Shown in pieces: positions 31,530 through 64,000 of a stretch of DNA of 64,000 bases. The stretch is taken from the IMG/VR virus record IMGVR_UViG_3300034682_000252, positions 1-64,000 of that record. One strand, 5' to 3'. The notes beneath the pieces were generated by a model. It was not told the origin of the DNA. It made no database searches and worked only from the letters and a program-made list of their open reading frames with translations. Each line of letters opens with the position of its first letter. Within the stretch, counting starts at the first letter, position 1. The position numbers were made by a program, and so were the translations under genes. Source of the DNA: a virus.

Positions 31530-32651
31530 CTACCGTTTTCCAGCCCTACGGCGGGCCATGGCCGATTCGCCGGCCAGAATGTCACGGCAATAGCGGATCA
31601 CCATGCGCTCACTGGTCCAGCGGCCGGCCTGCATGATCTCCAGAGTGTTGTATCCCTCGGCTGCCAGATCCTGGGAGGCGCCCACCCGGGCGGAGTGCCC
31701 AGACCAGCGCGGGATACCCAGGCGCTCGAGATCCAGCTCCATCCACGCCTTGGCGAAGATCTTCTCTACCGTATCCACCGACAGCGGGCCGCCAGCATAG
31801 GCCGGCTTGTTGTGCTTGGTGACCTTGCCGAACAGTTGATCGCCCCCCTCCAGCTTGCGGCCGGCCGCCTCCAGGTACTCCAGGATCAGCCGCATAGCCT
31901 GGCGCGACAGCGGCGCTTTGTCCGGTTCGCCTGAGTGGTTCGTCTTGGTGATGGGGATGGTCAGCACGGCGGTCCCGTCGGGATTGAGCTTGATGTGCTG
32001 GCAGCGAATACGGGCCACCTCGGACGCCCGCAGCAGCGTTTCATAGGCCACTACCAGGAGCGCCAGATCCCGCTTGCGCACCAGGAACGGGGATTGCCCC
32101 CACAGCTCCACCAGGTTATCGAGGTGAACCTCCCGCAGCGCGGAGGCCTGGTCGATCGTCTCCTCGGCCTTCACCTTGGCCCGCACCAGGGCGGCAAAGG
32201 TCCCCTGTAGCCGCTCGTCGGTGGTCGGGTCCGGGCAGCCGGCCGCCCGGTGAACCCGCCCAATGGCCCAGCGGTCAATCGCCAGGGTGTTGCGGTGGAC
32301 GCTGGTGGCCCGCTCGGTCAAGTAGGCTTCCACGTCGGCCACGTCGGCCGGAAGCGGTGACCGGTCACCAGAACTGGCGCACCAGGCCGCGAACCGGGAC
32401 CAGGCGCCGGTGAGGGATTCAATGGTCCGCTCGGAGTAGCGGCCGGCCCGCACCTGGAATTCCTCCAGGAACTGGGCGATGGCCTCCTGGATGCGCGGGT
32501 GTCGGTCGATGCGATGGCCATGCAGGCGAGCGCGGCGGATCAGCTCGCCCAAGTCGCTCGGGGTGAAGGCGTCGAGATCGAGTTGGTCGATAGTGGCGGT
32601 GAGTTCGGCCGGTAACATCTTGTCGCCGGCGAAGATGGCAAGTTGAGTCAT
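31530..32651 (-). CDS. cre: Cre-family tyrosine recombinase (VCre-like)
   Basis: Catalytic motifs LLRASE, TKT, HSARVG, GRW, RY; segments such as HRAAGCPDP and LTIPITKTNHSGEPD recall VCre. Confidence 0.9.
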   Translation of the reverse strand: MTQLAIFAGDKMLPAELTATIDQLDLDAFTPSDLGELIRRARLHGHRIDRHPRIQEAIAQFLEEFQVRAGRYSERTIESLTGAWSRFAAWCASSGDRSPLPADVADVEAYLTERATSVHRNTLAIDRWAIGRVHRAAGCPDPTTDERLQGTFAALVRAKVKAEETIDQASALREVHLDNLVELWGQSPFLVRKRDLALLVVAYETLLRASEVARIRCQHIKLNPDGTAVLTIPITKTNHSGEPDKAPLSRQAMRLILEYLEAAGRKLEGGDQLFGKVTKHNKPAYAGGPLSVDTVEKIFAKAWMELDLERLGIPRWSGHSARVGASQDLAAEGYNTLEIMQAGRWTSERMVIRYCRDILAGESAMARRRAGKR

Positions 32652-32707
32652 GGGAAAGGGTCTTTTCTAGTTGTTTGGGCGCGTCGGTGAGTATAGCCCC
32701 ATTTGCA

Positions 32708-32741
32708 TCAATTCGGAATAATTGTCATTAGTCCGAATTGA
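32708..32741. other. lox-type recombination site (13-8-13)
   Basis: TCAATTCGGAATA-ATTGTCAT-TAGTCCGAATTGA; arms 12/13 complementary; 56 bp upstream of the recombinase start. Confidence 0.85.
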
Positions 32742-32985
32742 TAATTTATGGAAATCGCCAGGTGGTGAGTGCTGGTTTTTTGAAAATCAGCAATGGTACT
32801 CAATGGCGACCCGAAATAAGGGGCGATTGTTGCAACCATCAGGAAAGGGTGGAGTTTTTGATCAAGACATGATCAAGGTAATTTTAAGACCCATAGCAAT
32901 CCTTGCCACTCGCTGAATATGCTGCGAAAATCGCGGCCTAGAAAAAATAACAAGCACGTCGAACTAAATCAGGCGGGATAATGTA

Positions 32986-33571: not shown

Positions 33572-33774
33572 TATGCCTTTGAAATGCGTGTAATCAGCCA
33601 GGGCCCCCGCCCTGGCCGCTCCTCCCCTTCATACCGCCCCCTCGTTCAGGTATTGATCTGAGTCCCCTGTCACTTCCTAAGCTATGCCGCATTGACTTGA
33701 ACAGTCCTTTTGTGAGCTACTATGATGGCACCAATTATTTAAACCCCCCCGTAAAAGAGAAGGCGGTCAACGTT

Positions 33775-34614
33775 ATGGCAGTAGATATTTCCCGGTACGA
33801 AAAGTTCTTGGAAGTCCGCAATAACGCAACAAAAATAATTCAGCGTCATTCTATTCACCACGAATTGAAAGGCGATGACGAGAGCGGGCACTATTCAAAA
33901 TTGGATGGCGGCAAGGCAAGTGACACCCTGCCACCCACAGAGAGCGCACGTAATAAAAATGATGATGCCGAGCAAAATATTACAGTGCGCCACGTTGGCG
34001 TTATTACAGATAAGGATGAATTACTTAATTTAAATCAATTTATTCAGCAGTGGCAGAATATGGCCAATGAATTAACCAAGGCTGACCCGCTCCGTTTCCC
34101 AAAGAATGCTGCCGTATTAGCACCGGTCCCCAGTATTATTTATGGTGTCCGCGCTATGTCAATTAGTGTTGGGCCAGCGACCACCAGCAAGAAATTTACC
34201 AAGCAAAGCATTCTGACCCGGTACGACAAAGCCATCAAAAAGGCGCTCCAGAGCGAGCGGGTGAGCCATAACAGCGCACTACGCCTCCAGCTCGAGCGAG
34301 AGCGGGCGTTATTGGTCGCGGACAGCGAAACCCACTACCGGATCCGCAATACATGCGGAACAGAGACAGTTTGCACCGTGACATATAACGACGGCACCAC
34401 GGACAAGGTGAGAGTCCCCCATGTTGGAGTGGCTTTTGCGGCCCCGTTTGGAGGCATTGAGATTAGAAAGCCGCGTGTAATGCGCCCTCGATCAGACCGT
34501 TTGGAGCTGATGGGCATTGAGCCGCTGGATTGTTCCCTGTCTGGCCTGTCTGGCTTTGTTTACCGCGAATCAGAGGTAATTACAGCAAGGGGGCGTCACG
34601 CACGGCGGAAATAA
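33775..34614 (+). CDS. c1: C1-like primary repressor
   Basis: IQQWQNMANELTKADPLRFPKNAAVLAPVPSIIYGVR aligns with the P1 C1 core; convergent with pacB as in P1. Confidence 0.8.
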   Translation: MAVDISRYEKFLEVRNNATKIIQRHSIHHELKGDDESGHYSKLDGGKASDTLPPTESARNKNDDAEQNITVRHVGVITDKDELLNLNQFIQQWQNMANELTKADPLRFPKNAAVLAPVPSIIYGVRAMSISVGPATTSKKFTKQSILTRYDKAIKKALQSERVSHNSALRLQLERERALLVADSETHYRIRNTCGTETVCTVTYNDGTTDKVRVPHVGVAFAAPFGGIEIRKPRVMRPRSDRLELMGIEPLDCSLSGLSGFVYRESEVITARGRHARRK

Positions 34615-34649: not shown

Positions 34650-36155
34650 TTAGACGTCCTCCGCCACCAGCGCCTGCGCCCATCCTGCCAATGATTCTCG
34701 CTCAGCCACCATATCCGATGTAATGAGCATATTCGCCGGGATGTAGTCGGCCATCATGCTGAAACAGTAGGTATCCCACCGGTCGGGTGAGGGTAAGCCA
34801 AGTTTCTGCCGCATCGTCTCCTTGGGCATCATGCAGTTCTGACCCAGCTCGTTGAGCCTGCAGGGCATACGAGAGGCCTGGTCGAGGGTCTTTTCGTGCC
34901 CATCGAGGCGCATACGGCCGCTTCTCACCGCATCCCGGGCCATGATGTTGGCAAAGGCCCGTTTGTTGATGAAGCGCTTCTTATCCTCCTGGGAGAAGCA
35001 CGGTTGCCCCCACCGAATACGGATAACCTGGCGGCCGGCCTCTTCCAGGATCGTGGCTGTATCAGCCCCTACGCCGTCGCCATCCACAGCAAAGGTCACG
35101 TTGGGATACTGCTCGTTGGGGTACTCCGTGTTGAGCAGGCGGCCGTAATTCACCGGGTCGATAGTGCCGGCCCACTCCTTCACGCTCACTGGCACCACTC
35201 GCCGCTCGAATCGCTCCCCACTCACCCGCACCAGGTTGGCCACCGAGCTATCCCGGCCGTTCCCCACGTCCACCAGCACCAGCCAGCCCCAGCCTTTCGC
35301 CAGCTTGGGCTGGGCCCTGGTGGCCTTCTCGCAGTCATCCCGGGAGAGCAGGTATTCCGACGACGTGCGCGGGAACTCGCCCCGCACCTTGATCATGTAC
35401 TCGGGCGCGTCGCGGCTGCCGCCGTACTCGCGGATCTTGGACCGGATGAATGAGAGCTTTACCAGGGGGGACTGCTCAGAGCTCAACTTGATGGCCGTGT
35501 ACCCGTCCTTGTCACCGGGGTGGCGCTTCTTGAGCTTGTGGTGCGTATCGTAGAAGTAGCCGCTGGGGCGCGTTGGCTGGCTCAGGAGGAGGATCCGGTT
35601 GTCCTCCTCGGTCAGGGCACCGGTCATGACCCCGAACGCCTTGTCAGAGACGCCAGAGGCCTCGTCCACGATGTAGAACAGGTGCGCGGCGTGTTCGCCG
35701 GCGAGGGATTCCTCATTGCCGATACGGCAACCCTTGGGGGAGACGAACCAAACGCCCTTGCTGGACCGCTCGAAGAAGGTGGTTTCGGTCAGGACGAAGT
35801 ATTGCTCTACCCAGGGGTGACGCCGGCACAGCTCGCGATAGTTGATCTTGAGGTACTTCCAGACCACCGTCTGCACCTGGCTTATCTTGTTCGCCACCAC
35901 AATGACGCGAGCGCCCGGGAAGCAGAGCATGAAGATCAGGATCATGATGGATGTCATGTCAGACTTGCCGGTACCGTGACCAGAGGAGACGGAGGTTTTG
36001 GCCCCTGTCTCCTGGGCAGAGTCCAGGATCAGGGCCTGCTGCCAGGTCGGTTCCTTGCCGAACAGCTCCACGGCGGCCGTGGTCCAGTCATAGCGGTACC
36101 GCTTCACCAGGTCGAGGTAACGGGGGTCCTTGGTTATCGAGCGGATACGCCCCAT
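34650..36155 (-). CDS. pacB: Terminase large subunit
   Basis: Walker A SGHGTGKS, Walker B IVDEAS, nuclease VDVG...SPDRWD. Confidence 0.95.
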   Translation of the reverse strand: MGRIRSITKDPRYLDLVKRYRYDWTTAAVELFGKEPTWQQALILDSAQETGAKTSVSSGHGTGKSDMTSIMILIFMLCFPGARVIVVANKISQVQTVVWKYLKINYRELCRRHPWVEQYFVLTETTFFERSSKGVWFVSPKGCRIGNEESLAGEHAAHLFYIVDEASGVSDKAFGVMTGALTEEDNRILLLSQPTRPSGYFYDTHHKLKKRHPGDKDGYTAIKLSSEQSPLVKLSFIRSKIREYGGSRDAPEYMIKVRGEFPRTSSEYLLSRDDCEKATRAQPKLAKGWGWLVLVDVGNGRDSSVANLVRVSGERFERRVVPVSVKEWAGTIDPVNYGRLLNTEYPNEQYPNVTFAVDGDGVGADTATILEEAGRQVIRIRWGQPCFSQEDKKRFINKRAFANIMARDAVRSGRMRLDGHEKTLDQASRMPCRLNELGQNCMMPKETMRQKLGLPSPDRWDTYCFSMMADYIPANMLITSDMVAERESLAGWAQALVAEDV

Positions 36156-37573
36156 TACTCGGCCTCCCAGGATTCTTCATCCCAGTCGCCCGGTTGCGGG
36201 TCGTCATCGAGCGGAAGCGCATCGTCAGGGTGCCAACTGCCATCGTCGCCGGCGAGGATAAGCTCCCCCTCCTGGGCGTCTTTCTTAAAGGCCGCCTCTC
36301 CCAGCAGCTCGCCAGCCTGGTGCGCGGCCTCCTCGGCGATGATGCCCGAAATCTCCTCGTTGCGACCTGACAACCACTCCCCAGTCTGGACGCGCATCTT
36401 CTCCCGGTACGCCCTGGACTCTCGCTCCAACTCCTCTTCGGTGATGCCGCTACCCTGCTCGGCCCGGGGCTCCAGCCACGAGATTTCCTTGATCATTTCG
36501 GCATGGAGGGCATCCGGCAGATCGATACCCTCCCGGTTGAACAGGGTGGCCGTCTCGATGGCGGTCAGGCCTTCCTGGTTGCGGAGCTCCAGCAGCTCGG
36601 CCGTGCGGGCGATACGCTGGGCCAGGGAGAGGGGGTGGCGGCTCCACTCAGCCAGGGCCAGCTTGCGGCGCTCAAGCTCCAGCTTTTCACTGTCCATTGC
36701 GAGCTTGATGTAGGTGGCTTTCTGGCGGTGTATCGACTTCTCAAGTTCGGTGATGGGCTGGCTAGTCCCAAACTCTACTTGCATCAGCGCCTGCTCTTTG
36801 GGCATGGCGGCGCCGTTGTCATCGAGCCAGGGGCCACCCTTGCTGTAGTCCTTGCGGATCTTCTGCAGCGCCTCGCCCCGGGTTTTATACATGCCAGCCA
36901 GGCGGGCCCGGGCGAGTGTCAGCTCGTCGTCTGCATACTCATCCGAGGAAACCATCTCCAGCACCTCGGGATCAATCCCGAACTGGGAGGCATACCGCCC
37001 AAGCAGGACGTTACGGGCGCCGCCGCGCCGGTTTTTTGGGCGCGTCGGCGTTTGATCCTCAGAATTTCCCAGGTACTCGCCGACCACCACGCTCTCGCCT
37101 GCGCCCTCCCCCCTGGCCTGATCTGATCTACCCCCCTTTTTCGCTGCACCCCGCGTCGCGGCTGGCTTTGCGCTCCCTGCCGCTCGCTTTCGCTGCTGAT
37201 CAGGCGATGTGCTCCCGCTCGATGTAATAGGTTGATCAGCGGCCCTCCCACCACCTGATCTGATCACATGATCAGGCCCTCCCTTGGCATCCTTGGCCGC
37301 CTTCTCCTCGCGCTTCTCGGTGACCATCTTGCGCACTTCCCGGCGCACCACCTTACCCATTTTCAGGCCGGCGCCCTGGGCCCCCTCGGCGGTCGCCCTG
37401 GCCGCTGCCCCCTTGGCCTCCAGGGCAGCCGCGACCGCAGCCCCCATCGAGCGGCGGGCCGAATTTCTGTTCAAATCATTGGCAAGGGCGTACTCCACCA
37501 GACTCATAGAGTCGGCGAAGTGATCAACGTAGTTGTTGATATGGAATTGCCAGTCGAAAGTTGCCTTTGCCAA
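36155..37573 (-). CDS. pacA: Terminase small subunit
   Basis: N-terminal HTH (EYALANDLNRNSARR); coupled to pacB; TTG start. Confidence 0.8.
   Translation of the reverse strand: MAKATFDWQFHINNYVDHFADSMSLVEYALANDLNRNSARRSMGAAVAAALEAKGAAARATAEGAQGAGLKMGKVVRREVRKMVTEKREEKAAKDAKGGPDHVIRSGGGRAADQPITSSGSTSPDQQRKRAAGSAKPAATRGAAKKGGRSDQARGEGAGESVVVGEYLGNSEDQTPTRPKNRRGGARNVLLGRYASQFGIDPEVLEMVSSDEYADDELTLARARLAGMYKTRGEALQKIRKDYSKGGPWLDDNGAAMPKEQALMQVEFGTSQPITELEKSIHRQKATYIKLAMDSEKLELERRKLALAEWSRHPLSLAQRIARTAELLELRNQEGLTAIETATLFNREGIDLPDALHAEMIKEISWLEPRAEQGSGITEEELERESRAYREKMRVQTGEWLSGRNEEISGIIAEEAAHQAGELLGEAAFKKDAQEGELILAGDDGSWHPDDALPLDDDPQPGDWDEESWEAE
37119..37274. other. Putative pac site
   Basis: Seven TGATC(A/T) hexamers at 37119, 37124, 37197, 37233, 37256, 37261, 37269 inside pacA. 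Confidence 0.7.
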
Positions 37574-40723: not shown

Positions 40724-40736
40724 GTCTTGTTATCCC

Positions 40737-40901
40737 TTACTCCTCAGTGCCTGGACAGTCGTCAAGGCTGGTTCCCGCATCACCCCTCAGCACCCGGCAA
40801 TCGCACGGGTCAGGGCCTCCTGGGCCCCACTCGAAGTGGCTGCATCCGTCGCACAGGCTGCCCTGCTCGAAGGTGGCTATCACCTGCTCCTCGGGCGCCA
40901 T
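40737..40901 (-). CDS. 54-aa Cys-rich protein
   Basis: MAPEEQVIATFEQGSLCDGCSHFEW...CDC...DCPG; TGATG coupling. Confidence 0.55.
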   Translation of the reverse strand: MAPEEQVIATFEQGSLCDGCSHFEWGPGGPDPCDCRVLRGDAGTSLDDCPGTEE

Positions 40902-41248
40902 CACTTGCACCTCCCAAACTTCTTCTTGAAGAAAATCTCACTGTTGATGGCGCCTATCTCAATCTCAAGGGTCGTCTGCTCATCCATGTCCTTGAAGGTG
41001 TCCCGCTTGCTCTGCTTGTCCAGGGCAGCCCTGGCCACCCTCTCCCTCTGCGCCAGAGAGTCCAGCTTGGCCAACCCCTCCTTGGTCTTGAAATCAAGGC
41101 CTGCCGCCTCAGCGTGAAGCGCCAGCAAATCCCCGAGCGGGTCAGCCGCTCTAATGGCTTTCAGCTTCTCCAGCCGGCGCGATAGGCGGACCTTCTCCGC
41201 CTCCAGGGCATCTACCAGGATTTGATCATTGCTTCTTGGCTCGGTCAT
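40901..41248 (-). CDS. Hypothetical coiled-coil protein
   Basis: Coupled ORF. Confidence 0.7.
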   Translation of the reverse strand: MTEPRSNDQILVDALEAEKVRLSRRLEKLKAIRAADPLGDLLALHAEAAGLDFKTKEGLAKLDSLAQRERVARAALDKQSKRDTFKDMDEQTTLEIEIGAINSEIFFKKKFGRCK

Positions 41249-41491
41249 CTACTCCCCCCAGAACCGGCCAGTGGCCTTGTTGAAGTGCCTGCATATCCCA
41301 TGGAAGGGGCCCCGGGCCGCGCCCCGCTCGATGTAGTGCGTGACCTCCTTCTTGGCTCGCCGGCGATTGCGGTAACAACCGGACGTTGCCGCCATATCCT
41401 GGTCGCCATAGCACACCAGCCACCGGCCTTTGCCGGCTGGGGCAGGGACTATCCCCCACCCCTCAGTCCACCACTCTTTCAACTCGCTCAC
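41249..41491 (-). CDS. Hypothetical protein
   Basis: GTGA overlap. Confidence 0.55.
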   Translation of the reverse strand: MSELKEWWTEGWGIVPAPAGKGRWLVCYGDQDMAATSGCYRNRRRAKKEVTHYIERGAARGPFHGICRHFNKATGRFWGE

Positions 41492-41787
41492 TCCTGCACC
41501 CAATGACCCTGACTGAACGGGACCACCTTCTCCAACTGCTCCTTGACCCCACCAGAGACCTTGAAGGCCTCCCACTCCTGCAGATGCCCAGGGCAATAGT
41601 GAACCTCCGGCGCAACCTCCGCAGCGTGACGCCCGCACAGGGGGCGATCACATGTCTTGCCCTCTCCCACCGGGAAATCACACAGGTAGCCCGACACACC
41701 GCCGCAGCAGGTGCAGGGCTCCCCAAGGTTTCCGCAGAGGTGGCCTATCGGCTTGCCGTTCTTGTCGTGAAGCGCGTAGCACGGCAT
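41488..41787 (-). CDS. Cys-rich Zn-binding protein
   Basis: CTCC, LCDF, TCDRPLC, YCPGH. Confidence 0.7.
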   Translation of the reverse strand: MPCYALHDKNGKPIGHLCGNLGEPCTCCGGVSGYLCDFPVGEGKTCDRPLCGRHAAEVAPEVHYCPGHLQEWEAFKVSGGVKEQLEKVVPFSQGHWVQE

Positions 41788-41996
41788 CAGCCTTGCCCTC
41801 CCCGCTGCCAGGTGATCACATCCCAGGAATGGCTGACCTCGGACCGGTCATCTGCCGTTCGCCAGGAACAATCATCCTCCTCCACATGGATCAGCTCGAA
41901 CTCACGAACCGAACCGGTGAAGCAGTGCTTGAGCTGGCACAGGACCGGCACCTCTGGCGGTGGCATTTCATCCCAGACACTGACCCATTCAGCCAT
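41787..41996 (-). CDS. DUF551-like protein
   Basis: EWVSVWDEMPP...VITWQ. Confidence 0.6.
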   Translation of the reverse strand: MAEWVSVWDEMPPPEVPVLCQLKHCFTGSVREFELIHVEEDDCSWRTADDRSEVSHSWDVITWQRGGQG

Positions 41997-42550
41997 CAAC
42001 CTTTCTCCTCGATGTACTTGCGCAGCCCGTCGCGCACCGCCTGGATGATGCGGCACAGGTACAGATAATCGGAATTGGCCATGGTCGGGGGATCACGAAA
42101 CCACTCCTCGCCGAAGGCGGCCACCATCAACTTGTGGTCGCTGCAATGCGCCTCGCTGATCTCAATCCCCTCGGCACCCTCCCAGAAGGTTCTAGCCAGC
42201 CCCTTGTCCAGCTCTCGAGCGCGGCGCTGGCGCAGGAACTCGACCCGCAAAAGCCTGGTAAGCTCCTCCCCGTTCGCCAGCACTTCGGCCTTGAAGGAAC
42301 TCAGGTTCTTGGCGAGGTAGTGGTCATTCTGGGCTACAAAGAACTCCTCTACGCTGCGACCAGACAGTCCACGCCAACCAGCCGTCCAACTGGTGTCCCA
42401 GCAACGGATGGTGATCTGACCACGCCCAGGCTCCGGGTTATCCAGGTAAACGGTGATCGGGTCCAGGTTATCGAGCCCGGTCAGGCGCAAGGCCGTCACA
42501 TGGGCGGTGGCGACCTCCACCAGCGGCAAATCCTTATTCATGTGTGACAT
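41996..42550 (-). CDS. Conserved phage hypothetical protein
   Basis: LDPITVYLDNPEPGRGQITIRCW...YLCRIIQAV. Confidence 0.75.
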   Translation of the reverse strand: MSHMNKDLPLVEVATAHVTALRLTGLDNLDPITVYLDNPEPGRGQITIRCWDTSWTAGWRGLSGRSVEEFFVAQNDHYLAKNLSSFKAEVLANGEELTRLLRVEFLRQRRARELDKGLARTFWEGAEGIEISEAHCSDHKLMVAAFGEEWFRDPPTMANSDYLYLCRIIQAVRDGLRKYIEEKG

Positions 42551-42552
42551 GA

Positions 42553-42894
42553 TTAACCCTCTTGCTCGTCGGCCGGGGCTAACGCATTGCGGGCCAGTTC
42601 GCTCAGCTCGGCCCAGCCAGGCAAGGCGCGGTGCTGCTGAACCCATCGAGCTATGTCAGCGGCAAACGTGCCGGCCAGAGCGGTGAACCAGGAGGAGCCC
42701 GCATCAATGCCGTTGAGGGCCGCCGTGCGCTCCAGAACCGGCAGCGCGTCGTCCATGAACCATTCCGGGCGCCAGGCCACACTGCCCCACGGAAATTCAG
42801 TACCTGGATACTCCCGGGCCACTGCCTGGAAAACCTCGGCCATCTGGATCAGGGTGCGAACCTGGCGGCGCGTGAATGTCGTTCTATTCGTCAC
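42553..42894 (-). CDS. Hypothetical protein
   Basis: Coupled ORF. Confidence 0.65.
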   Translation of the reverse strand: MTNRTTFTRRQVRTLIQMAEVFQAVAREYPGTEFPWGSVAWRPEWFMDDALPVLERTAALNGIDAGSSWFTALAGTFAADIARWVQQHRALPGWAELSELARNALAPADEQEG

Positions 42895-43274
42895 TTATTC
42901 CTCCTCATTGGCGCTGCCATATCCAAACCGACGGCTGTCCAGTCGGCGCGTAAATTGGCGGCGTCACATGCGAATCCACCAGCAGGCGGCGGAAAGCCCA
43001 TTTCGGTCAGTTCGCGGGTCAGCTTGGCGATCTCCACTTGCAGCTCCCCCAGCCTTTTCAGCATGACGCTATGCTCTCGCTGCTTGTTCTTGAGTGACCG
43101 CTCGACTTTCTCCACCTGGGTAAGCGGGGCGGTCTGGCCGGAACCTTCCCGCACCTCGTAATCGCACTCGGGATCAGCGGGGCAGAACTCGAACCCGGAT
43201 TCGATGTGTTGCCACAGGCCTCGCAGGCAGAAGGGGCAGAAGCGCCCCGACAGCTTATGGGTTTTTGGGTTCAA
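42891..43274 (-). CDS. Zn ribbon + coiled-coil protein
   Basis: CPFC...C...C followed by heptads. Confidence 0.65.
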   Translation of the reverse strand: MNPKTHKLSGRFCPFCLRGLWQHIESGFEFCPADPECDYEVREGSGQTAPLTQVEKVERSLKNKQREHSVMLKRLGELQVEIAKLTRELTEMGFPPPAGGFACDAANLRADWTAVGLDMAAPMRRNK

Positions 43275-43623
43275 AGCCTGCCCTCTCCAAGAATTTCGTC
43301 ACCAGTGCCAGGGCTTGCCGGCGCTCGGCCTGCACTTCCGGGTTGTCCGGGTTGTTGTGCTCGCCCAGGAACGCCAGCGGGGTCTTTTCCAGGGCTCTGG
43401 CTACCCGGCCGTAGTGCTCCTCGCACTGGTACACGGCGCTACGTGTCAGAAAGGGCGTCATTCCCTCCTTCTCGGCCATATGCAGCCGCTCCAGCGCTAT
43501 CCGGTCGAACGTCATCAGATGGTCCATAGCGCACAGTGCCAGGCGGAGATCGTCATAGTCTGGGCGCTCACCAGAGCGGGCCGCCCTGATGATCTCCCCC
43601 AGCGTCTTGCCGGTCGGTGTCAT
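43255..43623 (-). CDS. Hypothetical protein, paralog of 51710-52108
   Basis: LGEII...DDLRLALCAM...SAVYQ...TPLAFLGE. Confidence 0.7.
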   Translation of the reverse strand: MTPTGKTLGEIIRAARSGERPDYDDLRLALCAMDHLMTFDRIALERLHMAEKEGMTPFLTRSAVYQCEEHYGRVARALEKTPLAFLGEHNNPDNPEVQAERRQALALVTKFLERAGFEPKNP

Positions 43624-44072
43624 ATCGGCTCGTCCTCGCCATCATCATCCTCGATGTACCCCTGGGCATTGTTCGCCACCAGCGCAAAGAGCCCATAGAG
43701 CGCCAGGTTTGCCACCAGGGCGTCATCAAGTGCCCGCTTTGCCTTGAGCGGCTGGTGGGCGAACGGGCCCATACCATCGTCGTCATCCATGGAGTGGAGC
43801 ATGTCGCTACACACGTCCAGGGTGTCACTGAACACCTCGCAGCGACTGATCACGGATTGCGGCGCCAGCTCAGGGTCTGCTGCAAGCCCCTCAAGCGCGT
43901 CCTTCATGTTCAGGTTCGTGATCAGCTCCAGGAGAGAATAGCGAGCATGGAACATCGGCGAGTCAGCCTTGCCACCTTCCATCGCCTCCGCCAGGCGCTC
44001 AAGCGTCGGCTGGTCTATGAGGCAGGCGATCCGCTCCACCAGCGGCTCAATGTTCGGGATCTCGTATGTCAT
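43620..44072 (-). CDS. Acidic hypothetical protein
   Basis: Coupled ORF. Confidence 0.7.
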   Translation of the reverse strand: MTYEIPNIEPLVERIACLIDQPTLERLAEAMEGGKADSPMFHARYSLLELITNLNMKDALEGLAADPELAPQSVISRCEVFSDTLDVCSDMLHSMDDDDGMGPFAHQPLKAKRALDDALVANLALYGLFALVANNAQGYIEDDDGEDEPI

Positions 44073-61248: not shown

Positions 61249-61530
61249 ATGAGACTATCGGCGATTCAAAAAGACGTGCTATTCGTGCTGTTCGCTATCA
61301 GGACCAAGGGGAAGGCTGGGCCGGTTCCCAGCATGACCCTGTTGGGGATGATCAACCGGGGGAGGTCCACAGAGGTGTTCCCGAGCAACTTCCGTACATC
61401 GTGCCACACCCTGGTTGATAACGGCTTGCTGGGCAAGTATCGAGACGAACAGTTAAACCTGGGCTTCTCTCTGACGGAGGCAGGCGCGGAACTGGGCGGC
61501 CAGATATACCAGGCCCGGATGGAAGGTTGA
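61249..61530 (+). CDS. Small wHTH protein, P1 UpfA-like
   Basis: MRLSAIQKDVLF...NFRTSCHTLVDNGLL...LTEAG. Confidence 0.7.
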   Translation: MRLSAIQKDVLFVLFAIRTKGKAGPVPSMTLLGMINRGRSTEVFPSNFRTSCHTLVDNGLLGKYRDEQLNLGFSLTEAGAELGGQIYQARMEG

Positions 61531-61562
61531 GGGCCACCACATGGCGGCCCTCAGTTGGCGAC

Positions 61563-62528
61563 TCAGCGCAAGCGGAGCTCGTGACCGAAGTCGATAGCAC
61601 CAGGCACGACTGGCGGCCGGCCATGTTGCGGCACGGATACCGGGTCGCGCTTGCCAAGCGGCAGGCTGCCGAGATCAGAGCGTGACAGGCTATCAAGGAA
61701 CTGACGCAAGATCTTGGCATCGTCCGGGGTCGCCATGGTGGCAATGGCCCGACGCTGGTCCTTGGTCAGCATGACCGGGTACGCCTCCAGGGCATCCATC
61801 ATGACCTGTTCGCGCTGCAGAGCGGCCGCCTTTGCCTCCTCCCGGGAGGCCTCCAGATCCTGGGCCAGCTTGGCCGAGTGCTGGCGCTGCTCAGACAGCA
61901 TCCCATCGAGCATCATCACATCGTAGAGGCTGGCCTCCTCAATGCGGCGAGCGGCGGATACCTGCACCCAGCTATCCAGCATCGCCACATAGGCGTCACG
62001 GTCCATGCCAAGCTCAGCGATCATCGCCTCCCCTGCTGAATCCAGCATCGCGCCCTGGCGGGCCAGCGGCACAAAGTTGGGCTGGGCTACGTAGTCGAAC
62101 CCGTACATCACCTGGGGATGGTCCCCGGTGTAGTTGCTGGGGCCGGTTACCGCCCAGGACCAGCCACCAGCATTCGAGTCGAGCATGGAGCACACGATAG
62201 CCCCGGACGGGGTATCCAGGATCTCCTGGGTGTGGTGCAACGTGCCGTCGTCGTCCAGGCTGATGGCCACCAGCCGGTTGCTGGGGACGTTCTGCATGAT
62301 GACCGGCTTCCCGTCGAGCATCACCACCTCCTGCTCGGCCGGCTTCATCTTGCCGGATAGCGAGCGGGCCGTGTGGCCGAAGTAGCCGAACAGCTCGCCC
62401 AGGCGCAGGCCTTCTTGGGTGGCTGCTGAATCCAGCATCTTCTTGACGGAATGGTGAACATAGCGGCGCCCGTTGTGGCCGGAGCGGCCTTCCTTGTGGA
62501 TGTTGATCGAGGTCTCTACGCGCCTCAT
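61563..62528 (-). CDS. pro: Prohead protease
   Basis: TQEGLRLGELFGYFGH, HTQEIL, AGGWSWA as in P1 Pro. Confidence 0.92.
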   Translation of the reverse strand: MRRVETSINIHKEGRSGHNGRRYVHHSVKKMLDSAATQEGLRLGELFGYFGHTARSLSGKMKPAEQEVVMLDGKPVIMQNVPSNRLVAISLDDDGTLHHTQEILDTPSGAIVCSMLDSNAGGWSWAVTGPSNYTGDHPQVMYGFDYVAQPNFVPLARQGAMLDSAGEAMIAELGMDRDAYVAMLDSWVQVSAARRIEEASLYDVMMLDGMLSEQRQHSAKLAQDLEASREEAKAAALQREQVMMDALEAYPVMLTKDQRRAIATMATPDDAKILRQFLDSLSRSDLGSLPLGKRDPVSVPQHGRPPVVPGAIDFGHELRLR

Positions 62529-64000
62529 AGCGGTTCTCCTAGCAGGTTAACGAGTTGGGTGTTGATGACGCCCTCCAGGAATGCCTGGAAGCCATCCCGG
62601 GGGCCCTTGTAGCCGACGGACTCCATGAAGTTCTGCCCGTCGCCGGCCTCCTCTTCGGCTGCATCCTTGGCGGCCTGGGCGAGGTCCTTGATGATCTGGG
62701 CGGCCTTGTCCGGGTCGAGCCGCACAATGTCGGTCAGCACCAGTTCCTTGAATGCGTCCGAACCGGCCAGGCGGCCGTTTTCGATGGTGTCGAGCACAGT
62801 GGCCAGCGCCATGGCGTAGTTGGTGCGCGTCTCCATGGCATCAGCCTGTTCGGCTTCGATCGCGGTGTTGAGGGAGTGGAATTTGATTTCGATGGGACGG
62901 AGCTCGCCGGCGCCGAACACTTTCCCGTACTTGTGGGCCATGTGAATGTCGATGAGCCGGTTCACGGACTGGACCACCCCCACCCGCAGCCAGTTGGCGC
63001 GGATCGCGGCTTGAATGGACGTTCGGAAGAATCCGCCATCCCCCAGCCCGCCAGACATGAGATCCCCCCAGCCGAGCATCGACACATCGATCCCCAGGGA
63101 TGACGCCATGCGCTTGAGGTGAAACATCACATCCTCAATGTGCTGAATGTCCGGGCTGACTGTCTGGGTGTCGATCGTCACGCCGCCCTTGTTGCCAGAC
63201 AGGTTAGGGATGAGCTGGTTCCAGACGGTGGGGATCAGGCCCTTGGCTTTCCCCTTGCGGGCGGCAGCCTCCATGTCCTTGCGCATCTGGGTACCCACGA
63301 GATTTAGGTACTGCGCGGCGCGGGCCGGGTCCAGGTTATCCATGCCGAGCGCCACGAACCGGTCAATACGGCTGGCGTTATAGCGGCTGCCCTTCATCGA
63401 ACGGATGGCATCGCTCAGATCACTCCAGGAGCCATAGGCAAACTCGAGGAACGACGTGCCGTAGTCCTGGGTTTCTATGGGCTTGCGGCGGTGAATGTCG
63501 TCATAGAGCGAGTAGCGGATCCCGGATGTGCCGGTGGGCTCCAGGGAGAGGGACGGTTGCCAGTACGGCACCTTGAGCCCCACCAACTGCCAGGGCTCCA
63601 CCAACTGGATCTCGCCCGGACGGGTGGGCGTCTTGAGGTATTCACCGGTGAAGCCGGCCAGGCGGCCGCCGCGGACGTACTCGCGGATCTGGTGCGCCAT
63701 CGTGTACCAGGACGATTCGAGATCGACGATCCCCTTGCCTGTCTCGCAATAGGGCCGGATGTAGTGGACCCCGTATGCGGCCATGAGCTTGCACCAGGAC
63801 GGCAGGCCGTTGTTGAGCATGGGCCCGAGCTCGGCCATGAGCGACGCGGCGATCTCCTTGGCGTCATCCGTCTTGGCCTCGATTGTGATGATGTTGCCGG
63901 TGCGGCTATCCACGCTCAGGGCGTGTGATATGTGCATATCCAGGGCGGCGGAGAGCACGGGATCGACAACCATCTCCTCGAGCAGGGCGTACTTGGCGAA
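62525..64000 (-). CDS. prt: Portal protein (5' end beyond the window)
   Basis: DIQHIEDVMFH, LGWGDLMSGGLGDGGFFRT; frame open to 64000; precedes pro. Confidence 0.9.
   Translation of the reverse strand, partial: FAKYALLEEMVVDPVLSAALDMHISHALSVDSRTGNIITIEAKTDDAKEIAASLMAELGPMLNNGLPSWCKLMAAYGVHYIRPYCETGKGIVDLESSWYTMAHQIREYVRGGRLAGFTGEYLKTPTRPGEIQLVEPWQLVGLKVPYWQPSLSLEPTGTSGIRYSLYDDIHRRKPIETQDYGTSFLEFAYGSWSDLSDAIRSMKGSRYNASRIDRFVALGMDNLDPARAAQYLNLVGTQMRKDMEAAARKGKAKGLIPTVWNQLIPNLSGNKGGVTIDTQTVSPDIQHIEDVMFHLKRMASSLGIDVSMLGWGDLMSGGLGDGGFFRTSIQAAIRANWLRVGVVQSVNRLIDIHMAHKYGKVFGAGELRPIEIKFHSLNTAIEAEQADAMETRTNYAMALATVLDTIENGRLAGSDAFKELVLTDIVRLDPDKAAQIIKDLAQAAKDAAEEEAGDGQNFMESVGYKGPRDGFQAFLEGVINTQLVNLLGEPL

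What the first reader, a model, noticed from the sequence alone, without database searches (positions are those of the whole stretch)
31530..32741. Candidate new Cre-type recombinase and its cognate 34-bp lox site
Seen: an intact tyrosine recombinase gene with TCAATTCGGAATA-ATTGTCAT-TAGTCCGAATTGA 56 bp upstream, i.e. 13-bp arms (one mismatch) around an asymmetric 8-bp spacer. Known: this is the loxP/rox/VloxP architecture. From memory, VloxP shares the outer TCAATT...AATTGA and a TGTCAT spacer but has different inner arms. Inference: this is the dimer-resolution/circularisation system of the element and may be orthogonal to Cre and VCre, so it could be a usable tool. I cannot tell whether the pair is already published.
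Basis: partly seen in the sequence, partly recalled or inferred. Interest (0 to 1): 0.85.

Follow-up and report, generated by a model that had tools for sequence, protein, structure and literature searches.

The report
Cre-type recombinase with its lox-like site
An Aeromonas P1-like phage-plasmid carries an intact relative of the Cre recombinase beside a 34-bp lox-type target site; this is an untested but ordinary new member of a well-known family of genome-engineering enzymes.

Summary
A 373-aa Cre-family tyrosine recombinase (31530-32651, minus strand) lies 56 nt from a unique 13-8-13 inverted repeat (32708-32741) with one arm mismatch.

- **Protein.** It matches Cre over its full length by sequence and by predicted fold. 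All six catalytic residues are present. It is 46% identical to VCre and 31% to Cre.
- **Site.** Orthologues of 78-97% identity in Aeromonas and Leclercia plasmids keep the site at the same place with 0-3 changes, where 8-18 are expected at the synonymous rate. Homologues of 44-55% identity have the same geometry with different arms. The same scan recovers loxP, VloxP and pox-type sites as positive controls.
- **Host element.** It is a complete 91-kb P1-like phage-plasmid with one site and one recombinase gene. The site is absent from 46 Aeromonas genomes.

The best reading is a P1-style cyclisation and multimer-resolution system. The half-sites differ from VloxP at 5 of 13 positions and from loxP at 6 of 13. 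Activity and orthogonality are untested.

No paper in the searchable library holds this site. About 500 such pairs were predicted in 2023 in a supplementary table I could not read. This is a new member of a known kind, of modest interest.

The parts
31530..32651 (-). Cre-type tyrosine recombinase gene, 373 aa (P0001). Catalytic residues are R208, K236, H319, R322, W345 and Y354.
   Evidence: phmmer against PDB Cre gives E 3.5e-33 over residues 62-367. Pfam PF00589. Alignment A1 and residue mapping. AlphaFold model with pLDDT 87 matches Cre chains at target-normalised TM 0.89. dN/dS is 0.06-0.19 against orthologues.
32708..32741 (.). 34-bp lox-type site: arms 32708-32720 and 32729-32741, asymmetric spacer 32721-32728.
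   Evidence: It is conserved at 31-34 of 34 positions in orthologous loci, where 8-18 changes are expected at the synonymous rate (P 8e-5 to 1e-8).
32652..32707 (-). 56-nt leader between site and start codon. It holds an 11-mer (32678-32688, ACCGACGCGCC on the gene strand) that is invariant in all six orthologous loci.
   Evidence: The 11-mer is not enriched as a repeat in the window. Its function is unknown.
32881..32909 (-). Sigma-70-like promoter hexamers upstream of the site. A transcript from here would carry the site in its leader. Two GATC sites (32860, 32871) lie just downstream.
   Evidence: Consensus scan only; weak evidence.
34650..36155 (-). Large terminase, 55-57% identical to P1 PacB (context).
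36155..37573 (-). PacA-like small terminase gene. It holds a cluster of TGATCA hexamers at about 37120-37275, a candidate P1-type pac site about 4.4 kb from the lox-type site (context).
   Evidence: The pac assignment rests on resemblance to P1 pac recalled from knowledge and was not tested.

Best explanation
This is the Cre/lox-equivalent module of a roughly 91-kb P1-like Aeromonas phage-plasmid. Shown by computation: the protein is an intact, selectively maintained Cre-family enzyme. The adjacent 13-8-13 inverted repeat is the single, conserved, co-varying site of the kind this family uses. Inferred from Cre biochemistry: one monomer binds each 13-bp arm and two bound sites synapse into a tetramer. 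Y354 then cleaves within the 8-bp spacer, and strands are exchanged through a Holliday junction without accessory factors. The asymmetric spacer sets the polarity of the site. Inferred biological role, as in P1: (i) circularising terminally redundant virion DNA after infection when the site lies in the redundancy, since the candidate pac site is only about 4.4 kb away, and (ii) resolving plasmid multimers before partition. Because the site lies between a promoter-like element and the start codon, binding may also repress the gene itself. That last point is speculative.
For: Protein. Full-length similarity to Cre (E 3.5e-33). The fold match to Cre chains (TM 0.89) is far above XerA, IntI or XerH (0.5-0.6). 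The hexad R208/K236/H319/R322/W345/Y354 is invariant. dN/dS is 0.06-0.19. Site. It has one arm mismatch, is unique in the 91-kb record, and 0.15 such palindromes are expected per window. Conservation. The AS3 plasmid has an identical site, and pASP-135, two Leclercia plasmids and one IMG/VR contig show 2-3 changes, mostly in the spacer. Flanks are only 33-44% identical on the far side. Family pattern. Among 160 homologous loci, 80 have a 13-8-13 palindrome with at most one mismatch upstream of the gene, against 1 within or downstream of it. The scan recovers loxP in 30 loci, plus VloxP variants and pox-type sites. Element. It has P1-like PacB, a PacA-like gene and ParM-type partition. Its 70-82% identical relative AS3 carries a RepB-family initiator, Ref, a portal, baseplate genes and a toxin-antitoxin pair. 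Module boundary. Against AS3, the recombinase-plus-site block (31537-32744) is 93% identical while its neighbours are 67-81%. That block ends 3 nt beyond the outer edge of the site. This fits crossover at the site, but it is not proof.
Against: No experiment has been done, and recombination on this site is untested. In Jelicic et al. 2023 only 8 of 17 similarly predicted pairs were active. The homology break at the site could simply reflect a variable intergenic patch, since homology to AS3 resumes about 150 nt further on. The genome is mosaic elsewhere too. The pac assignment and the autoregulation idea rest on motif resemblance only.
Confidence: 0.85

Rival explanations
1. The pair is genuine but already published, as one of the roughly 500 predicted pairs or one of the 17 tested YR candidates of Jelicic et al. 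2023. It would then not be new.
For: Their pipeline ran tblastn with Cre, Vika, Nigri and Panto, then searched for palindromes with 13-15-bp arms, at most 2 mismatches and an 8-bp spacer within 1 kb. It would have picked up the Leclercia W17 record (2 arm mismatches) if that record was in its database. YR1 and YR6 are VCre relatives with VloxP-like sites.
Against: No paper in the library contains either 13-nt arm in a recombinase context. 'Aeromonas' and 'Leclercia' do not occur in the main text. YR1 and YR6 sites are described as highly similar to VloxP. That description fits the Vibrio clade, which has identical VloxP arms and different spacers, better than a site with 5 of 13 half-site differences. 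The supplements are not held, so this remains open.
Confidence: 0.3
2. The palindrome is only a transcriptional operator for the recombinase gene or a neighbouring gene, and the enzyme's real target lies elsewhere.
For: The site lies between a promoter-like element and the start codon. A second conserved motif lies beside it.
Against: The geometry is exactly 13-8-13. Arms co-vary symmetrically with the protein across the family. The same search rule finds the experimentally proven loxP and VloxP sites. No other candidate site exists in the 91-kb genome.
Confidence: 0.05
3. The enzyme is a phage integrase and the palindrome is the core of an attP used for chromosomal integration.
For: Public annotation says only 'tyrosine-type recombinase/integrase'.
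Against: Relatives are closed circular plasmids with replication and partition genes. No copy of the site, allowing up to 3 mismatches, was found in 46 Aeromonas species genomes. The fold and sequence match Cre rather than the lambda-Int or Xer types.
Confidence: 0.03
4. The module is a decaying relic that no longer recombines.
For: C-terminal 80-aa remnants of this same gene occur in other Aeromonas replicons. The module can therefore be lost.
Against: In this element the ORF is intact, the catalytic residues are present and dN/dS is 0.06-0.19. The site is conserved far below the neutral expectation.
Confidence: 0.05

Closest known systems
VCre/VloxP of Vibrio sp. plasmid p0908 (Suzuki & Nakayama 2011, PMC3082901)
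   Same: It is the closest characterised enzyme at 46% identity, and both share an N-terminal extension that Cre lacks. Both sites are 13-8-13 with one arm mismatch. They share the outer arm bases TCAATT and a spacer that differs at one position. Both reside on a P1-like plasmid.
   Different: Five of 13 positions differ in each half-site, all in the inner part. The residue aligned with Cre R259 is D293 here and K288 in VCre. The site is inverted relative to the gene and lies 56 nt upstream, against about 435 nt. There is no small ORF between site and gene.
Cre/loxP of phage P1
   Same: Fold, catalytic hexad and site geometry are shared. The site lies next to the gene on a P1-like phage-plasmid with PacA/PacB-type packaging.
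   Different: Identity is only 31%, and 6 of 13 half-site positions differ. There is no cra-like ORF. This protein has about 35 extra N-terminal residues, modelled as two helices.
Predicted and tested Cre-type pairs YR1-YR12 (Jelicic et al. 2023, PMC10250229)
   Same: The same discovery logic applies: a palindrome with an 8-bp spacer close to a Cre-like gene.
   Different: The sequences of those pairs could not be read because the supplements are not held. Identity with any of them is neither shown nor excluded.
Uncharacterised lox-type pairs on other Aeromonas plasmids (pAeme3, pAsmA, pMC64A, YURI 17, Aero21 p1)
   Same: Proteins are 48-55% identical, with a 13-8-13 site upstream of each gene and inner arm bases ending ATA.
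   Different: The arms are entirely different, with 4-8 of 13 mismatches. Four of these loci (pAeme3, pAsmA, pMC64A, Aero21 p1) keep a small ORF between site and gene.

Membership tests
Cre-type tyrosine site-specific recombinase system | Catalytic residues equivalent to Cre R173, K201, H289, R292, W315 and Y324 | tested here: met
   R208, K236, H319, R322, W345 and Y354 are invariant in alignment A1.
Cre-type tyrosine site-specific recombinase system | Two-domain Cre fold over the full length, including the C-terminal helix that Cre exchanges between subunits | tested here: met
   phmmer covers residues 62-367 against Cre 28-337. The model has pLDDT 87, and Foldseek's top 30 hits are all Cre or Tre, with TM 0.82-0.89 normalised to the target. 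A terminal helix is modelled at 364-372.
Cre-type tyrosine site-specific recombinase system | 34-bp target close to the gene: 13-bp inverted repeats around an asymmetric 8-bp spacer | tested here: met
   32708-32741, one mismatch, 56 nt from the ATG. It is conserved in orthologues.
Cre-type tyrosine site-specific recombinase system | Recombines two such sites without accessory proteins | not testable with these tools
   This needs an excision assay.
VCre/VloxP (same system) | Same enzyme and same half-site as p0908 | tested here: not met
   46% identity, with 5 of 13 half-site mismatches.
Integrative phage integrase (attP/attB) | A matching core site in host chromosomes, or an integrated state | tested here: not met
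   No match with up to 3 mismatches in 46 Aeromonas genomes. Relatives are circular plasmids. An attB that shares only a short core would have been missed.
P1-like phage-plasmid (context) | P1-type packaging and virion genes together with plasmid replication and partition genes | tested here: met
   PacB is 55-57% identical to that of P1. The window has a PacA-like gene and a ParM-like gene. The related AS3 plasmid carries RepB-family, Ref, portal, baseplate and tail-fibre genes. The record is complete with direct terminal repeats.

The most novel reading that the evidence does not exclude
The pair is an active, uncharacterised Cre-type system that does not cross-react with Cre/loxP or VCre/VloxP. 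Its naturally asymmetric half-sites (C versus A at arm position 11) are conserved in all six orthologous loci and may bias the order of strand exchange. That would make it a ready extra orthogonal tool and a natural test case for half-site asymmetry.
Probability: 0.35. Interest if true: 0.45.

Novelty: new member of a known kind. Interest (0 to 1): 0.3.

Why it matters
Orthogonal Cre-type recombinases are used together for multi-step genome engineering, and each validated pair adds a channel. This pair has unusually good comparative support for its target site. Its half-sites are also clearly different from those of VCre, its closest characterised relative. Still, more than a dozen Cre-type systems have been validated and about 500 predicted, so the gain would be incremental. 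Biologically, it shows that the P1 cyclisation and resolution module is kept in GC-rich Aeromonas phage-plasmids. One relative, pASP-135, carries many resistance genes.

Tried and rejected
- **Literature for the site.** A full-text search for the four 13-nt arms found only unrelated primer matches.
- **Jelicic et al. 2023.** The main text mentions neither Aeromonas nor Leclercia and gives no site sequences. Its supplements are not held.
- **Other literature searches.** Searches for YR1/YR6, for Aeromonas P1-like Cre, and for pASP-135 gave nothing on this pair.
- **The look-up of encoding contigs.** Contexts of the 55-76% identical database proteins P0006-P0021 could therefore not be read.
- **Closest relatives elsewhere.** Scans with the single protein found only one viral contig and one truncated Aeromonas rivuli copy.
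- **P1 C1 repressor.** The 305-aa ORF at 33697-34614 has no tblastn match in the phage collection, so a P1 C1-like identity is not supported.
- **The conserved 11-mer as an operator.** It is not enriched in the window.
- **The V. coralliilyticus plasmid homologue (L019).** I first took it for Vika. Its site differs from vox as I recall vox, so I do not call it Vika.
- **Other palindromes.** The two other 2-mismatch palindromes in the window (24018, 38088) are at chance level.

Full report
**Observation**

The minus-strand ORF at 31530-32651 is intact and encodes 373 aa (P0001). On the plus strand, 32708-32741 reads TCAATTCGGAATA / ATTGTCAT / TAGTCCGAATTGA. The 13-nt arms are inverted repeats with one mismatch at arm position 11, and the 8-nt spacer is asymmetric. 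Exactly 56 nt separate the site from the ATG.

The site is unique in the window. It is also unique in the whole record, a complete 91,016-bp IMG/VR virus genome with direct terminal repeats, of which the window is bases 1-64000. Palindromes of this geometry with at most one mismatch are expected 0.15 times per shuffled window.

**The protein**

- phmmer against the PDB finds only Cre and its engineered variants (17 distinct sequences, including Tre). The best E-value is 3.5e-33, covering residues 62-367 against Cre 28-337.
- Pfam gives PF00589.
- An AlphaFold model built on 26 homologues has pLDDT 87. Foldseek's top 30 PDB hits are all Cre or Tre, with target-normalised TM up to 0.89. XerA, IntI, XerH and the Tn1549 integrase reach only about 0.5-0.6.
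- I aligned P0001 with P1 Cre (taken from NC_005856), VCre (p0908) and Aeromonas, Leclercia and Vibrio homologues. The Cre catalytic residues R173, K201, H289, R292, W315 and Y324 correspond to invariant R208, K236, H319, R322, W345 and Y354.
- Identities are 46% to VCre, 31% to Cre and 31% to Dre.
- In the plasmid collection, full-length matches above 60% identity come only from four Aeromonas and Leclercia records. The two other records above 60% are Aeromonas plasmids carrying short remnants of the gene. So no characterised enzyme from Vibrio, Shewanella, Pantoea or coliphages is a close match.
- The gene is under purifying selection, with dN/dS 0.06-0.19 against five orthologues.

**The site is the cognate target: comparative evidence**

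In gene orientation the site has the same position in every orthologue.

| Locus | Protein identity | Site compared with the window |
|---|---|---|
| A. salmonicida AS3 plasmid (L001:3911-3944) | 97% | 34 of 34 identical |
| A. hydrophila pASP-135 (L002:2-35) | 91% | 3 changes |
| Leclercia W17 (L003:323-356) and M17 (L012:1408-1441) | 78-80% | 3 changes each, two in the spacer |
| IMG/VR contig (L009:1906-1939) | 80% | 2 changes, both in the spacer |

At the synonymous divergence of the adjacent gene, 8-18 changes would be expected in 34 nt. The probability of the observed counts is 8e-5 to 1e-8. The site is an island of conservation: the 100 columns beyond it are only 33-44% identical. The C/A asymmetry at arm position 11 is kept in all six loci.

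More distant homologues (44-55% identity) have the same 13-8-13 geometry upstream of the gene but different arms. This holds for five Aeromonas plasmids (L013-L017) and for a Vibrio clade. In the Vibrio clade the outer arm is identical to that of VloxP, the other arm is the same or differs at one position, and the spacers vary.

Across 160 homologous loci from viral and metagenome contigs, 80 have such a palindrome with at most one mismatch upstream of the gene. Only 1 has one within or downstream of the gene. The scan recovers authentic loxP in 30 loci, as well as pox-type and VloxP sites. That serves as a positive control for the rule.

**The element**

- The large terminase (34650-36155) is 55-57% identical to P1 PacB.
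- Next to it lie a PacA-like gene and a ParM-type partition gene.
- The related 88-kb AS3 plasmid is 70-82% identical over most of the window. It carries a RepB-family initiator, ParM, a Phd/YoeB pair, Ref, a 6.7-kb helicase-related gene, and portal, baseplate and tail-fibre genes.
- pASP-135 has been listed as a putative phage-plasmid with 13 resistance genes (PMC9600943).
- The gene order, PacA-like then PacB-like then a 305-aa ORF then site then recombinase, parallels the region around loxP in P1. This comparison rests on my own knowledge of the P1 map and on the P1 annotation.
- A cluster of TGATCA hexamers inside the PacA-like gene (about 37120-37275) resembles the P1 pac site and lies about 4.4 kb from the lox-type site.

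**Mechanism**

Shown by computation: an intact Cre-type enzyme, and a single conserved site that co-varies with the protein. The remaining steps are inferred from Cre biochemistry:

1. One monomer binds each arm.
2. Two bound sites synapse into a tetramer.
3. Y354 cleaves within the spacer, and strands are exchanged through a Holliday junction.
4. The asymmetric spacer sets the polarity of the site.

The likely biological roles are those of Cre in P1. One is circularising terminally redundant virion DNA. The other is resolving plasmid multimers.

One observation fits crossover at the site in nature. Against AS3, the block 31537-32744 (recombinase plus site) is 93% identical, while the flanking genes are 67-81% identical. 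The block ends 3 nt beyond the outer edge of the site. However, homology resumes about 150 nt further on and the genome is mosaic elsewhere, so this is suggestive only.

**Rivals**

- An integrase/attP reading is unlikely. Relatives are circular plasmids, and no copy of the site with up to 3 mismatches exists in 46 Aeromonas species genomes.
- An operator-only reading does not explain the exact geometry and the symmetric co-variation of the arms.
- A relic reading is contradicted by the purifying selection on both the gene and the site.

**Comparison and novelty**

Half-sites differ from VloxP at 5 of 13 positions and from loxP at 6 of 13. By my own count against the SloxM1 sequence quoted, they differ from it at 9 of 13.

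The residue aligned with Cre R259 is D293 here and K288 in VCre. From my knowledge of the Cre-loxP structures, R259 is a base-contacting specificity residue. This is compatible with a different specificity, but published data show that cross-reaction is hard to predict from mismatches alone.

I found no paper that describes this pair. Jelicic et al. 2023 predicted about 500 pairs by the same logic, and their tables could not be read. The pair may therefore be listed there as a prediction. I give about 10% that it is one of the 17 they tested.

**Verdict**

This is a new member of a known kind. Interest is modest (0.3), because the class, the discovery logic and many members are already established. 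Activity and orthogonality remain to be shown at the bench.

Noticed in passing
window 37120-37275 (inside the PacA-like gene 36155-37573, minus strand): There are clusters of TGATCA hexamers at both ends of a stretch of about 150 nt. They resemble the P1 pac site and lie about 4.4 kb from the lox-type site.
   Followed up: partly
window 31537-32744 against NZ_CP110646 (L007/L008): The recombinase-plus-site block is 93% identical to the AS3 plasmid, while most of the genome is 67-82% identical. Other high-identity blocks lie at 40731-43640 (84-92%) and 61530-64000 (87%). The genome is therefore mosaic, with one block boundary at the lox-type site.
   Followed up: partly
L010:1908-2246 (Aeromonas rivuli); L183:2494-2733 (pAh2111-2-KPC); NZ_KX364409; L116; L117: Remnants encoding only the C-terminal 80 aa or so of this recombinase, 88-95% identical, occur in other Aeromonas replicons, including an IncU KPC plasmid. 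A hairpin-like palindrome lies downstream of the remnant in three of these loci (L010, L116, L117) and after the intact AS3 gene.
   Followed up: partly
window 32678-32688 (minus strand), and the same position in L001, L002, L003, L009 and L012: The 11-mer ACCGACGCGCC between the site and the start codon is invariant in all six orthologous loci although the surrounding leader has diverged. Its function is unknown, and it is not enriched as a repeat in the window.
   Followed up: partly
L013:1156-1189, L014:1127-1160, L015:1146-1179, L016:1284-1317, L017:1100-1133, L104:1376-1409, L109:301-334, L113:644-677, L019:1267-1300: A series of further, apparently undescribed 13-8-13 lox-type sites lies upstream of Cre-type genes on Aeromonas and Vibrio plasmids and on metagenome contigs. 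Each has its own arms, and most end in ATA next to the spacer.
   Followed up: partly
L002:1-35 (NZ_CP016381, pASP-135): The public record of this 143-kb resistance-bearing phage-plasmid is linearised one base from the outer edge of its lox-type site. An IS26/blaSHV-12 region begins about 2.3 kb beyond the site.
   Followed up: no
window 32860 and 32871: Two GATC sites within TGATCA motifs lie just downstream of the promoter-like -10 element that faces the site and the recombinase gene. This recalls the Dam sites annotated in the P1 cre regulatory region.
   Followed up: no
window 33697-34614 (+): A 305-aa ORF sits where P1 has c1. It matches only PHROG 1678 (function unknown) and has no tblastn match in the phage collection.
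   Followed up: partly
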